From a virus (Duplodnaviria > Caudoviricetes): 64,000 bases of DNA. The notes beneath the pieces were generated by a model. That model ran no database searches and was not told the origin of the DNA. It worked only from the letters and a program-made list of their open reading frames with translations. The stretch lies in the IMG/VR virus record IMGVR_UViG_3300049170_000080, positions 888 to 64,887 of that record. The stretch is one strand, 5' to 3'. Every line of letters begins with the position of its first letter. Position 1 is the first letter of the stretch. Of the stretch, positions 13,423-16,001 are shown piece by piece. A program made the position numbers and the translations under genes.

Positions 13423-14454
13423 ATGGCGCAAGCCGCCGAGGCCCCCGCCAGCACGACGGCGGAGGGCCCCACCTCGCACACCCAAAATCAGGACGACGGG
13501 TTCGACTTCGTGGACGCAACGCGACCTGCGACGAACGCTTTCATTGCGCTGACCGGGCCGGCCAACTCGGGGAAGACCTACACCGCTTTGGCCATGGCCA
13601 CGGGGATGGGCACCCGGATCGGGGTGTGTGACACCGAGCGCGGCCGCGCCAGCCACTACGCCGGCTTGTTCCCGTTCAAGCATCTGCGGATGCCGGACTT
13701 CCGCCCTCAGACGCTGGTGCGGGCCCTGGCCGTAGGCGCCCGGCGCGGCATTGACGTGATGATCATCGATTCGGGGACGCACTACTGGTCCGGCCGGGGC
13801 GGCGTCCTCGAGCAGGTCGACCGCACGACCGAGGCCTCGCGGTCCAAGAACGCGTTCACGTCCGGCTGGAAGACCATCAAGCCGGTCGAGCACGAGATGT
13901 GGGACGCGATCATGGCGTACCCGGGGCACGTCATCATGACGCTGCGGGTCAAGACCGCCTACGAGCTCGTGTCCAACAAGCAGGGCGGCGTGGAGCCGAA
14001 GAAGCTCGGGCTGAAGCCGGACCAGCGGGCCGATGTGGAGTACGAGTTCGACTTCGTCGGCGACCTCGACATGGAGCACACGATGACCGTGTCGAAGTGC
14101 TCGTACCCGGACCTGTTCGAGTCCGGGGAGCGGATCGAGATGCCGAACACGGAGACCGGCCACCGGATCGTGAAGTGGCTGGGTGAGGGCACGCCGATGC
14201 CGACGGTGCAGGACTACGTCGAGCGGGTCATGCAGCCCGAGATGACGTACGAGCAGCTGCTCGGCCTGTACCAGGGCGAGCTGTCCCAGCGCGGTCTGCT
14301 CGGTGCTGCCCTGTTTGCCCCGGACACCGGGGAACAGACCACCCTCGGCGGGCTGATCGCCCGTATCGGCGGTGCACGCAAGGCGGCCGCCGAGAGCGTG
14401 ACTGCGCCGAGCCACGCCGCTCAGGGCGGCCCCGGGGAAGGGCAGGCGGCCTGA
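13423..14454 (+). CDS. AAA-family ATPase (Sak4/AAA_24-like phage recombination protein)
   Basis: Walker A GPANSGKT, CDTERG, Walker B MIIDS, YEFD motif. Confidence 0.8.
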   Translation: MAQAAEAPASTTAEGPTSHTQNQDDGFDFVDATRPATNAFIALTGPANSGKTYTALAMATGMGTRIGVCDTERGRASHYAGLFPFKHLRMPDFRPQTLVRALAVGARRGIDVMIIDSGTHYWSGRGGVLEQVDRTTEASRSKNAFTSGWKTIKPVEHEMWDAIMAYPGHVIMTLRVKTAYELVSNKQGGVEPKKLGLKPDQRADVEYEFDFVGDLDMEHTMTVSKCSYPDLFESGERIEMPNTETGHRIVKWLGEGTPMPTVQDYVERVMQPEMTYEQLLGLYQGELSQRGLLGAALFAPDTGEQTTLGGLIARIGGARKAAAESVTAPSHAAQGGPGEGQAA

Positions 14455-16001
14455 TGGCGCCGCTGCGGATAGGCAGCCTTTTCACCGGAACGGGCGCCTT
14501 GGATCTGGCCGTGATGGACGTCTACGACGCCGAGGTGGTCTGGCACTCGCAGTACGAGCCGCCGGACAAGAACGGCAAGGAAGACACCAACCAGTACGCG
14601 GCGAAGATCCTGGCCCGTCACTGGCCGGACGTGCCGAACCTCTGGGACATCACGAAGGTCGACTGGCAGGCCGTCATCGAGGAGCACGGGCCGGTCGACA
14701 TCCTCACGGGCGGGTTCCCCTGCCAGGACGTTTCCTCCGCCGGCCGCCGGGCTGGTCTGACCGCGGACTCCAGGTCCGGGCTGTGGGCCCACTTCGCCCG
14801 CGCCATTTACGAACTCAACCCCCGATTGGTGGTGATCGAGAATGTCGAAGGGCTCCTCTCAGCTCCCGCTGATCGTGGACTGGGACTCGACGCTGAGGCT
14901 CTGGAAGAAGAGGCCAAGGCAGGACGGGTTCTTCGAGCTCTTGGAGCCGTTCTCGGAGACTTGGCCACCCTCGGGTTCCATGCGGAGTGGGAGCGCGTGG
15001 GAGCGGACGAGGTCGGCGCCCCGCACCGGCGTCGCCGCATCATCATCTACGCCTGGCCGGCTGCTCTCGACCCCGGTGGCCTCGGACGGTGGGACGGATC
15101 GGGGTTCGTCGGCGGGCTGGGGGCTGAGGGACGAGGCGCGGAAGCTGCTGCCGACTCCGCGCACCTCGGACACGAACGGGGCGGGGCCTCACGGCGACGG
15201 GGGCCCGGATCTGCGGACGGCGATCTCGATGCTGCCGACGCCGCGGGCGAGGGACGGGAAGGGGGCGGGCTACGAGGACGATCTGCCCTCAACGGTGGAC
15301 CGGCTTCTTCCGACGCCCACCGCGTCGAATCCGAACGACGGGGAGTCGCTGGAGTCCTGGGAGGCCAGGCGGCAGCGGAACAAGGCGAAGGGGATCAACG
15401 GGAACGGGCAGGGCACACCACTGGCGATCGCCGTCCGGCAGATGTCGAACCCGCCTGCCCCACGTGCGGATGCGGAGAGTCCTTCCACGACGCTGGAGGA
15501 TTCTGCGCCGGGTCCTGCGGCGGCACCTGCACCGACCCCGAACTCGGACGGTCCGATGAAGCTGATGCCGACGCCCAGGGCGACGGACGGGACGAAGGGC
15601 GGGCCGAATCAGCGCGGCAGCAAGGGCGACCTGATGCTTCCGAGCCTGGCGGCGCAGCTCCTGCCGACCCCGACAGCGTCGGATGCCGAGCGGACGTCCT
15701 CGACCTTCGGCCGGGGCAACCCGACCTTGACTGGGGCGATTACGGACCCGCCATCCGACGGTGGGAAGCCGTCCTCGGACGACCCGCCCCCTGGCCAACC
15801 GACGCTCTGGGACGCCTGAGCCCCGTCTTCACCGAATGGCTCATGGGCCTCCCAGACGGCTGGGTCACCAACACCCCTGGCCTGACCCGGCCCGCCATGC
15901 TCCGTGCCCTTGGTAACGGCGTCGTCTGGCAGCAAGCCGCCCACGCCATCCGATGGCTGCACCAGCGTGCGAGTGCGGCAGCCGGATCAGCAGCCGCTTG
16001 A
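14454..16001 (+). CDS. DNA (cytosine-5) methyltransferase
   Basis: Motif I SLFTGTG, IV GGFPCQ, VI VIENV, VIII PHRRRR, terminal EWLMGLP and LGNGVV; low-complexity middle. Confidence 0.9.
   Translation: MAPLRIGSLFTGTGALDLAVMDVYDAEVVWHSQYEPPDKNGKEDTNQYAAKILARHWPDVPNLWDITKVDWQAVIEEHGPVDILTGGFPCQDVSSAGRRAGLTADSRSGLWAHFARAIYELNPRLVVIENVEGLLSAPADRGLGLDAEALEEEAKAGRVLRALGAVLGDLATLGFHAEWERVGADEVGAPHRRRRIIIYAWPAALDPGGLGRWDGSGFVGGLGAEGRGAEAAADSAHLGHERGGASRRRGPGSADGDLDAADAAGEGREGGGLRGRSALNGGPASSDAHRVESERRGVAGVLGGQAAAEQGEGDQRERAGHTTGDRRPADVEPACPTCGCGESFHDAGGFCAGSCGGTCTDPELGRSDEADADAQGDGRDEGRAESARQQGRPDASEPGGAAPADPDSVGCRADVLDLRPGQPDLDWGDYGPAIRRWEAVLGRPAPWPTDALGRLSPVFTEWLMGLPDGWVTNTPGLTRPAMLRALGNGVVWQQAAHAIRWLHQRASAAAGSAAA
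14842..15819 (+). CDS. Alternative-frame ORF nested in the C5 MTase gene (LPTP-repeat protein)
   Basis: 325 aa in +1 frame; SETWPPSGSMR and six L[LM][PS]TPx[AT]x[DN]-type repeats; protein-like composition where the MTase frame is not. Confidence 0.7.
   Translation: MSKGSSQLPLIVDWDSTLRLWKKRPRQDGFFELLEPFSETWPPSGSMRSGSAWERTRSAPRTGVAASSSTPGRLLSTPVASDGGTDRGSSAGWGLRDEARKLLPTPRTSDTNGAGPHGDGGPDLRTAISMLPTPRARDGKGAGYEDDLPSTVDRLLPTPTASNPNDGESLESWEARRQRNKAKGINGNGQGTPLAIAVRQMSNPPAPRADAESPSTTLEDSAPGPAAAPAPTPNSDGPMKLMPTPRATDGTKGGPNQRGSKGDLMLPSLAAQLLPTPTASDAERTSSTFGRGNPTLTGAITDPPSDGGKPSSDDPPPGQPTLWDA

What the first reader, a model, noticed from the sequence alone, without database searches (positions are those of the whole stretch)
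14454..16001. Dual-coding C5 methyltransferase locus: a 325-aa ORF nested in the +1 frame
The MTase frame has motifs I-VIII and X, but its variable region reads as low-information sequence. The +1 frame, starting at an ATG within motif VI (gagaATGtc), encodes a coherent protein with six LPTPxAxD-type repeats. Precedent: M.EcoHK31I needs a beta polypeptide encoded in an alternative frame of the alpha gene. The repeats could form a modular or multispecific target-recognition subunit. Double frameshifting is an alternative explanation.
Basis: partly seen in the sequence, partly recalled or inferred. Interest (0 to 1): 0.7.

Follow-up and report, generated by a model that had tools for sequence, protein, structure and literature searches.

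The report
Two-frame phage cytosine methyltransferase gene
One 1.5-kb stretch of this Streptomyces phage-plasmid is most likely read in two overlapping frames to make the two chains of one DNA cytosine methyltransferase; annotators usually miss this layout, although many relatives keep it.

Summary

- **Frame 0 (14454-16001):** it carries C5-methyltransferase motifs I-VIII. A 220-residue G/A/D/R-rich stretch follows, then motifs IX and X.
- **+1 frame (14842-15819):** it starts at an ATG inside the ENV codons, behind the strongest Shine-Dalgarno match in the gene. It encodes a conserved N-terminal element plus six LPTPxAxD modules.
- **Conservation:** all 17 related Streptomyces-type loci fetched, and phages of Arthrobacter, Mycobacterium and Gordonia, put the variable region in the +1 frame.
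- **Both frames are translated:**
  - The +1 frame has the coding GC3 signal and the higher amino-acid conservation.
  - Frame 0 has no stop across the nested gene in any locus where motifs IX-X lie in frame 0. About 44 stops were expected in total, 4.7 of them in the window.
  - Ordinary window genes, and relatives whose IX-X lie in the +1 frame, show stops at the expected rate.
- **No slippery site** is present, so double frameshifting is unlikely.

The closest known enzymes are M.EcoHK31I and M.AquI. Here the nested chain carries the variable region, not motif IX. Activity, chain assembly and the role of the repeats are untested. This scan has already reported the same layout on at least eight other genomes.

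The parts
14454..16001 (+). alpha ORF (frame 0, 515 aa): motifs I-VIII, a stop-free linker, then motifs IX-X
   Evidence: ORF. PF00145 at 94 bits over residues 5-200. phrog_1008 positions 214-328 match residues 394-513. Motif coordinates.
14454..15068 (+). Catalytic half of alpha: motif I FTGTG 14481-14495, PCQ 14718-14726, ENV 14838-14846, LGDLA 14952-14966, motif VIII PHRRRR 15021-15038
   Evidence: Frame-0 GC3 is 0.83-1.00 up to about 14840. Aligns to residues 1-180 of the single-chain homolog P0098.
14828..14837 (+). Shine-Dalgarno-like GGTGGTGATC, 4 nt upstream of the beta start. It lies within the codons for motif VI residues VVI.
   Evidence: Predicted pairing with the 16S 3' tail is -18.2 kcal/mol, the strongest in the gene (background -6.0, sd 3.2). 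It is -12 to -17 in 13 relatives.
14833..14835 (+). TGA stop in the +1 frame, two codons before the beta ATG. It rules out entry into the +1 frame from further upstream.
14842..15819 (+). beta ORF (+1 frame, 325 aa): N-terminal element plus six LPTPxAxD modules
   Evidence: ORF. +1 GC3 is 0.83-0.93. phrog_1008 positions 76-215 match residues 14-157. 2634 database relatives at E <= 0.001, many called as stand-alone hypothetical proteins.
14842..15068 (+). First dual-coded overlap: alpha's motif VI-VIII segment and beta's N-terminal element (hairpin 14872-14910; FSETWPPSGSMRSG 14950-14991)
   Evidence: Both frames are conserved column by column. The same register (LGDLA over SETWP) is found in Streptomyces, Arthrobacter, Mycobacterium and Gordonia phages. 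+1 identity is 0.454 against a null of 0.380, z 4.9. Frame 0 uses rare codons here.
15064..15681 (+). Array of six LPTP-type modules in beta, starting at 15064, 15148, 15232, 15307, 15565 and 15661
   Evidence: The modules align with those of single-chain homologs. Predicted unstructured.
15069..15719 (+). alpha linker: the frame-0 reading of the beta gene, G/A/D/R-rich and poorly conserved, but free of stops
   Evidence: Frame-0 identity is 0.22-0.40 against 0.55-0.74 for the +1 frame. There are 0 stops against 4.7 expected, P(0) = 0.006. Composition.
15732..15819 (+). Second overlap (88 nt): the start of alpha's C-terminal module (WGDYGPAIRRWE...) over the last 29 codons of beta
   Evidence: Here frame 0 is the better conserved frame, and the second position of +1 codons varies most.
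15732..15998 (+). C-terminal module of alpha: WGDYGPAIRRWE 15732-15767, motif IX 15813-15863, motif X GNGV 15912-15923
   Evidence: The homologous segment lies in the +1 gene in Colucci, Geodirt and ByChance.

Best explanation
The locus encodes a phage C5-cytosine DNA methyltransferase made of two chains, read from two overlapping frames of one mRNA.

**Alpha (frame 0, 515 aa).** It contains the AdoMet-binding and catalytic motifs I-VIII. A linker of about 220 residues follows; it is simply the off-frame reading of the beta gene. Alpha ends with the WGxY helix and motifs IX and X.

**Beta (+1 frame, 325 aa).** It starts on its own at the ATG formed by the ENV codons, behind a strong ribosome-binding site. 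It supplies what single-chain relatives carry between motif VIII and the WGxY helix. That is a beta-strand element of about 70 residues that belongs to the folded core, followed by six flexible LPTPxAxD modules.

**Assembly (inferred).** The two chains associate non-covalently, as in M.EcoHK31I and M.AquI. Beta's N-terminal element completes the small, DNA-facing domain.

**Shown here:** the conserved frame layout, the coding signal in both frames, selection for an open frame 0, and the start signals.

**Inferred:** translation of both chains, their assembly, enzyme activity, and any role of the repeats in target choice.
For: 1. **Frame order is conserved.** The order 0, +1, 0 holds in 17 of 17 Streptomyces-type loci, and in phages Raleigh and MidnightRain.
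2. **The +1 frame is coding.** Its GC3 is 0.83-0.93. Its column identity is 0.55-0.74, against 0.22-0.40 for frame 0.
3. **Frame 0 is kept open.**
   - There are 0 stops in 21 loci, against 0.4-5.9 expected per locus from synonymous-codon shuffles.
   - The null is calibrated on 19 window genes: 49 stops observed, 47.6 expected.
   - Three relatives with IX-X in the +1 frame act as a natural control. They show 6, 1 and 1 stops against 7.1, 1.3 and 2.4 expected.
4. **Beta has its own start.**
   - The ATG in ENV is the first +1 start in 13 of 17 loci, two codons after a stop.
   - It uses AAT, which is 7.7% of Asn codons in window genes.
   - The SD pairing is -18.2 kcal/mol, the strongest in the gene.
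5. **One profile is split between the two frames.** phrog_1008 positions 76-215 match beta and positions 214-328 match alpha.
6. **Single-chain homologs carry the same parts in series**. In the AlphaFold model of P0098, the equivalent of beta's N-terminus is confident (pLDDT above 90) and the LPTP array is not. The model matches M.HhaI at Z 22.6.
7. **Split C5 methyltransferases are known to work** (PMC2836561, PMC3404938).
Against: - There is no direct evidence of translation of either chain, of assembly, or of methylation.
- Beta alone folds poorly in silico (mean pLDDT 57.7).
- The excess conservation of the +1 frame in the first overlap is significant but modest (0.454 against 0.380).
- One relative (L004, identical to L012) has a TAG inside beta, so the nested gene can be lost in at least some prophages.
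- The loci are related by descent, so the per-locus stop tests are not fully independent.
- No route is known by which two old protein elements came to overlap in two frames.
Confidence: 0.75

Rival explanations
1. Two programmed ribosomal frameshifts (+1 after motif VIII, -1 before the WGxY helix) yield one ordinary single-chain methyltransferase.
For: Joining the three segments in the order frame 0, +1, frame 0 would resemble single-chain homologs such as P0096 and P0098. Frame changes in a phage gene invite this idea.
Against: - Beta's conserved N-terminal element overlaps motifs VII-VIII on the same nucleotides. No single path can therefore include both.
- No X XXY YYZ heptamer lies in the +1 frame within 90 nt of the second junction in any of 15 loci, and the junction sequence is not conserved.
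- Frameshifting gives no reason for frame 0 to be free of stops.
- A +1-frame stop sits two codons before the ATG.
Confidence: 0.04
2. There are three products. Alpha in effect ends after motif VIII. Beta is made separately. The IX-X module is produced by a -1 shift from beta or by internal initiation. The frame-0 linker is not part of a working protein.
For: Relatives of the Colucci type make IX-X as part of the +1 gene and end frame 0 just after motif VIII.
Against: - Frame 0 has no stop after motif VIII in any locus of this layout, although 0.4-5.9 are expected per locus. Colucci-type loci do have them.
- There is no conserved start codon or slippery site before the WGxY helix.
Confidence: 0.1
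3. The gene is a decaying or non-functional methyltransferase with two compensating frameshift mutations. The long open frames are a by-product of 70% G+C.
For: High-GC DNA often keeps off-frames open. One relative carries a nonsense codon in beta. Gene callers give inconsistent annotations.
Against: - The same frame order is kept in loci whose +1 proteins are only 35-40% identical, and in a 63% G+C Arthrobacter phage.
- The +1 frame shows purifying selection.
- Frame-0 stop avoidance exceeds the calibrated null.
- Start signals are conserved.
Confidence: 0.05
4. The +1 segment is a selfish insertion element with an out-of-frame gene, like the hidden HNH endonuclease of the ShiLan domain in actinophage methylases. 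It is not a subunit of the enzyme.
For: Out-of-frame ORFs inside actinophage methylase genes, with a stop-free host frame, have been described (PMC11855218).
Against: - Beta has no nuclease domain. Its only family match is a DNA methyltransferase family.
- Its parts are the normal variable region of single-chain relatives.
- It is present in every relative of this clade rather than patchily.
Confidence: 0.03

Closest known systems
M.EcoHK31I (E. coli, YGGCCR), alpha/beta C5 methyltransferase
   Same: The beta chain is encoded wholly inside the alpha gene in another reading frame. Both chains are needed: silent removal of the beta starts abolishes methylation in vivo (PMC2836561).
   Different: In M.EcoHK31I, alpha keeps the target-recognition domain and beta supplies motif IX (PMC2836561, PMC3404938). 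Here alpha keeps motif IX and beta supplies the whole variable region. Alpha also carries an off-frame linker of about 220 residues. Sequence relatedness to M.EcoHK31I was not tested, because no sequence was available.
M.AquI (CYCGRG), alpha/beta C5 methyltransferase
   Same: The enzyme is split within the variable region between motifs VIII and IX (PMC3404938). The two genes overlap in different frames (from my own recollection of Karreman and de Waard 1990, not read here). Relatives of the window's gene in phages Colucci, Geodirt and ByChance have this two-gene layout.
   Different: In the window, motifs IX-X have returned to the alpha frame. Beta is therefore nested rather than trailing, and alpha spans the whole locus.
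PHROG 1008 (phage 'DNA methyltransferase', the Colucci gp83-type second subunit)
   Same: Beta matches profile positions 76-215 (E 3.4e-23). Alpha's C-terminus matches positions 214-328 (E 1.3e-31).
   Different: In the window the family's single profile is divided between two reading frames.
ShiLan domain: hidden out-of-frame HNH endonuclease in actinophage methylase genes (PMC11855218)
   Same: A second gene sits in another frame inside an actinophage methylase gene, and the host frame stays free of stops and reads as disordered sequence.
   Different: That insert is a mobile endonuclease with a patchy distribution. Here the nested gene is a conserved part of the enzyme itself.
Multispecific C5 methyltransferases of Bacillus phages (SPR, phi3T, rho11s; from my own knowledge, not checked here)
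   Same: Tandem, exchangeable modules lie between motifs VIII and IX, and their number and order vary between relatives.
   Different: Those enzymes are single chains, and each module has been mapped to a target sequence. No target is known for any LPTP module, and no sequence similarity was tested.

Membership tests
C5 cytosine DNA methyltransferase (Pfam PF00145) | Pfam score above the gathering threshold | tested here: met
   94.2 bits against a cut-off of 22, over residues 5-200 only.
C5 cytosine DNA methyltransferase (Pfam PF00145) | Motifs I (FxGxG), IV (PCQ), VI (ENV), VIII (QxRxR type), IX and X (GNGV) | tested here: met
   All are present in frame 0 at 14481, 14718, 14838, 15021, 15813 and 15912. 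Motif VIII reads PHRRRR, with H in place of Q, as in relatives.
C5 cytosine DNA methyltransferase (Pfam PF00145) | Variable (target-recognition) region contiguous with the catalytic motifs in one chain | tested here: not met
   The homologous region lies in the +1 frame.
C5 cytosine DNA methyltransferase (Pfam PF00145) | Forms 5-methylcytosine in DNA | not testable with these tools
   Needs expression and methylation mapping.
M.EcoHK31I-type nested heterodimer | Second chain encoded entirely within the first gene, in another frame | tested here: met
   14842-15819 lies inside 14454-16001, in the +1 frame.
M.EcoHK31I-type nested heterodimer | Nested chain carries motif IX; outer chain carries the target-recognition domain | tested here: not met
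   Motif IX is in frame 0. The variable region is in the nested chain.
M.EcoHK31I-type nested heterodimer | Both chains required for activity | not testable with these tools
   Needs start-codon knock-outs that are silent in the other frame, as done in PMC2836561.
M.EcoHK31I-type nested heterodimer | Sequence homology to M.EcoHK31I alpha and beta | not tested
M.AquI-type split enzyme | alpha = motifs I-VIII; beta = rest of the variable region plus IX-X | tested here: not met
   In the window IX-X lie in the alpha frame. The feature is met in relatives Colucci, Geodirt and ByChance.
Programmed ribosomal frameshift gene | Conserved slippery site at the frame junction | tested here: not met
   No X XXY YYZ heptamer in the +1 frame within 90 nt of the junction in 15 loci. 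Junction sequences differ between loci.
Programmed ribosomal frameshift gene | Only one frame conserved at any position | tested here: not met
   Both frames are conserved across 14940-15060.
PHROG 1008 second-subunit family | Significant match to the profile | tested here: met
   Beta E 3.4e-23 (positions 76-215); alpha C-terminus E 1.3e-31 (positions 214-328).
Multispecific phage C5 methyltransferases | Each tandem module specifies its own DNA target | not testable with these tools
   The modules vary in number and order between relatives, but no target data exist.
Out-of-frame homing endonuclease insert (ShiLan type) | Nested ORF encodes an HNH or other nuclease | tested here: not met
   No Pfam family matches beta. 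Its only PHROG match is a DNA methyltransferase family.

The most novel reading that the evidence does not exclude
The LPTPxAxD modules are independent mini target-recognition units. Beta would then be an exchangeable multi-specificity cassette for a constant catalytic chain. The rapid switching between layouts seen among close relatives would be the footprint of module shuffling. These layouts are: the return to frame 0 before the WGxY helix, in mid-array, or not at all. It would also follow that a protein element older than the split, beta's N-terminus, has been kept overlapping motifs VII-VIII in a second frame across four host genera. That would be an unusually old and tightly constrained case of dual coding.
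Probability: 0.2. Interest if true: 0.8.

Novelty: new variant of a known kind. Interest (0 to 1): 0.58.

Why it matters
- **Annotation.** Phage records give this locus as one 'DNA methylase' gene (Darolandstone gp38, Seagreen gp68), or as a methylase plus a hypothetical protein (Colucci gp82/83). Thousands of metagenomic relatives are called 'hypothetical'. Recognising the nested chain corrects these records.
- **Dual coding.** The locus is a natural, widely conserved example in which each frame visibly constrains the other. The signs are rare codons, stop avoidance and start codons built from motif codons.
- **Enzyme design.** It extends the short list of natural split C5 methyltransferases. 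Such enzymes are used as platforms for targeted methylation (PMC2836561).
- **Phage-host biology.** If the repeat modules set target specificity, the family would be a ready-made library of exchangeable recognition units. Phages could use them to escape host restriction.

Tried and rejected
- **Genus-wide search:** Relatives were fetched with the search for related loci instead.
- **Beta against Pfam and solved structures:** no match by sequence.
- **AlphaFold of beta alone:** it gave a mostly low-confidence model (mean pLDDT 57.7), so no fold search was run on it.
- **-1 frameshift site:** a search at the second junction found none.
- **Sequencing error or pseudogene:** rejected because of conservation and the selection tests.
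- **Literature:** six of seven full-text searches, including those for actinophage cytosine methyltransferases and for heterodimeric C5 enzymes in phages, found no description of the LPTP nested gene. The search found only the unrelated ShiLan HNH case. The 1995 M.EcoHK31I paper is not held, so its sequence could not be compared.
- **BLASTP of alpha against P0098:** it reported the N-terminal match only. The C-terminal homology rests.
- **LAGLIDADG idea:** one beta relative (P0024) seemed to carry an N-terminal LAGLIDADG domain, but Pfam gave no support.
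Full report
**1. What is in the window**

- The + strand holds a 515-aa ORF at 14454-16001 and a 325-aa ORF at 14842-15819. The second is offset by 388 nt, so it is in the +1 frame.
- The +1 ATG lies inside the GAG AAT GTC codons of motif VI.
- Frame 0 matches Pfam PF00145 at 94 bits, but only over residues 5-200.
- Frame 0 carries these motifs:

| Motif | Position |
|---|---|
| I | 14481 |
| PCQ | 14718 |
| ENV | 14838 |
| VIII (PHRRRR) | 15021 |
| WGDYGPAIRRWE helix | 15732 |
| IX | 15813-15863 |
| X (GNGV) | 15912 |

- Between motif VIII and the helix, frame 0 reads 220 residues that are 59% G, A, D or R.
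- The +1 protein has six LPTP-type anchors, at residues 75, 103, 131, 156, 242 and 274.
The one correction is that frame 0 also holds motif IX.
- Context: the gene sits in a phage early region, after an AAA_24 ATPase gene whose stop overlaps the alpha ATG, and before a WhiB-like gene.

**2. Which frame codes where**

- Third-position G+C follows frame 0 up to about 14840. It then follows the +1 frame (0.83-0.93) to about 15750, and then frame 0 again.
- Both frames are high around 14950-15080.
- In the stretch after ENV, frame 0 uses many codons that are rare in this element, such as GGA, TTG and several T-ending codons. This is what is expected if the other frame dictates the sequence there.

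**3. Relatives**

- A tblastn search with the +1 protein alone fetched 6 genomic and 12 viral-contig loci.
- In all 17 Streptomyces-type loci analysed, the N-terminal half is in frame 0, the LPTP protein is in +1, and the C-terminal module is in frame 0. This holds even where the +1 proteins are only 35-40% identical.
- Annotated phages show three layouts:

| Layout | Frame order (N half, LPTP region, IX-X) | Phages |
|---|---|---|
| A | 0, +1, 0 | Darolandstone, Raleigh (Streptomyces), MidnightRain (Arthrobacter, 63% G+C) |
| B | 0, +1, +1, as two overlapping genes | Colucci, Geodirt, ByChance |
| C | Returns to frame 0 in the middle of the LPTP array | Seagreen, prophi91-4 |

- A tree of the catalytic half interleaves these layouts. 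For example, ByChance (B) is sister to Seagreen (C). Two layout-A loci sit inside a clade of single-chain enzymes. The position of the return to frame 0 is therefore evolutionarily labile.
- The +1 start over motifs VI-VIII is the constant feature.

**4. The first overlap is true dual coding**

- In all four host genera, the frame-0 text VLRALGAVLGDLA.LGY.A.W...VGAPH.R.R is overlapped, in the same register, by the +1 text LF....P(F/Y)SETWP.SG.M.NG. LGDLA lies over SETWP.
- Column identities are high in both frames there.
- I kept each frame-0 protein and redrew its codons from that locus's own usage. This gives a +1 identity of 0.380 (sd 0.015, maximum 0.431), against 0.454 observed, z 4.9.
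- Single-chain homologs (P0096, P0098 and about 5000 others) carry the same +1 element in series, about 20 residues after motif VIII. The LPTP modules, the WGxY helix, motif IX and motif X follow.
- The two elements share nucleotides in the window, so no single translation path can contain both. At least two polypeptides must be made.

**5. Beta has its own start**

- In 13 of 17 loci, the ATG in ENV is the first start codon of the +1 frame and lies two codons after a TGA.
- It depends on AAT, which makes up 7.7% of Asn codons in the window's genes.
- The 22 nt upstream pair with the 16S rRNA 3' tail at -18.2 kcal/mol. The tail sequence is taken from general knowledge. This is the strongest site in the gene (background -6.0, sd 3.2). 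The value is -12 to -17 in relatives.
- Loci with AAC in ENV use a GTG a few codons downstream. That GTG is built from the LLSA codons with the rare Ser codon AGT.

**6. Frame 0 is translated through the nested gene**

I shuffled synonymous codons of the +1 gene, keeping its protein and codon usage, and counted frame-0 stops.

| Set | Frame-0 stops observed | Expected |
|---|---|---|
| Window | 0 | 4.7 (P(0) = 0.006) |
| MidnightRain | 0 | 3.7 (P(0) = 0.006) |
| All 21 loci of layouts A and C | 0 | 0.4-5.9 per locus, about 44 in total over non-redundant loci |
| The remaining (+2) frame, 17 Streptomyces-type loci | 2-11 per locus | not calculated |
| 19 ordinary window genes (calibration) | 49 | 47.6 |
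| Layout-B relatives (frame 0 not needed after motif VIII) | 6, 1, 1 | 7.1, 1.3, 2.4 |

- Selection against stops in frame 0 therefore appears exactly when motifs IX-X lie in that frame.
- This is what a full-length alpha predicts. Frameshifting or internal initiation does not predict it.
- No X XXY YYZ heptamer exists in the +1 frame within 90 nt of the second junction in 15 loci, and the junction sequences differ.

**7. The second overlap**

- Beta's last 29 codons (15732-15819) overlap the WGxY helix.
- There frame 0 is the better conserved frame, and the second position of +1 codons varies most. I read the beta tail as a by-product.

**8. Family and structure**

- PHROG 1008 is the family of the Colucci-type second subunit. 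In the window it is split between frames: positions 76-215 match beta and positions 214-328 match alpha's C-terminus.
- An AlphaFold model of the single-chain homolog P0098 is confident for residues 1-210 and 440-520. The first range includes strands 168-207, which align with beta residues 8-67. The LPTP array (215-395) has pLDDT of 30-50.
- The model matches M.HhaI at Z 22.6 over 247 residues.
- Beta alone gives mean pLDDT 57.7, with only a confident N-terminal hairpin.
- Inference: alpha's linker occupies the place where single-chain enzymes already tolerate about 180 flexible residues. Beta's N-terminus docks in trans to complete the small domain.

**9. Comparison with what is known**

- M.EcoHK31I has a beta chain nested in another frame of alpha. 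There beta supplies motif IX, and alpha keeps the recognition domain. Removing the beta starts silently abolishes methylation (PMC2836561, PMC3404938).
- M.AquI is split in the variable region, with IX-X on beta (PMC3404938). Layout-B relatives resemble it.
- The window combines nesting, as in M.EcoHK31I, with a split in the variable region, as in M.AquI. It adds an off-frame but obligatorily open linker.
- Actinophage methylases are also known to host out-of-frame HNH genes with a stop-free host frame (PMC11855218). Here the nested gene is part of the enzyme.
- My full-text searches found no paper describing the LPTP nested gene (for example).
- This scan has reported the same layout on at least eight other genomes, with the same reading. 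Those notes are not independent evidence.

**10. Open points**

- No expression, assembly or activity data exist.
- The role of the LPTP modules is unknown. Multispecificity is only an analogy.
- One relative has a nonsense codon in beta.
- How two old elements came to overlap is unexplained.

**Verdict:** a real, conserved two-frame, two-chain methyltransferase gene. It is a new variant of a known kind.

Noticed in passing
L021:1850-1900 (Mycobacterium phage Seagreen) and L022:2000-2050 (prophi91-4): In both phages the +1 gene ends ...D-L-TAG. Frame 0 then reads (TA)GAC CTG CTA CC... = D-L-L-P-T-P, 8 nt on. The Asp-Leu pair is thus encoded twice, around a conserved TAGACCTGCTACC. A Leu-to-Leu hop over 5 nt would give a seamless LLPTP module. 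I did not test whether this is a recoding site or a recombination scar.
   Followed up: partly
L004:2954-2956 (identical to L012): A Streptomyces prophage copy has TAG in place of the Tyr codon of GKGAGYEDDL in the nested gene, while frame 0 stays open. This is either a decaying copy or a tolerated loss of full-length beta.
   Followed up: partly
L013:5241-5867: The same viral contig carries a second C5 methyltransferase about 1.7 kb downstream. Its catalytic half and an LPTP module are in one frame (single-chain type).
   Followed up: no
window 14452-14456: The stop of the upstream AAA_24 ATPase gene overlaps the alpha start (TGATG). This suggests translational coupling within the early operon.
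   Followed up: no
P0024 (beta relative, 519 aa): This beta relative has an extra N-terminal extension of about 190 residues containing GIFDGEGS, which recalls LAGLIDADG endonucleases. Pfam gave no match, so this is only a lead. PMC9957025 reports lone LAGLIDADG inserts in an actinophage methylase family.
   Followed up: partly
L007:2339-2700 and L008:2339-2700: In these two loci the frame-0 VI-VII linker is short. Beta's N-terminal element therefore overlaps motifs V-VIII even more tightly, and neither the ATG in ENV nor the LLSA GTG is available. The beta start there is unclear.
   Followed up: no
L005, L006, L016 and L018, frame 0 between ENV and LRALG: Several relatives read EPC..C(V)GD (a CxxC pair) in the frame-0 VI-VII linker, where the window has no cysteines. 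The significance is unknown.
   Followed up: no
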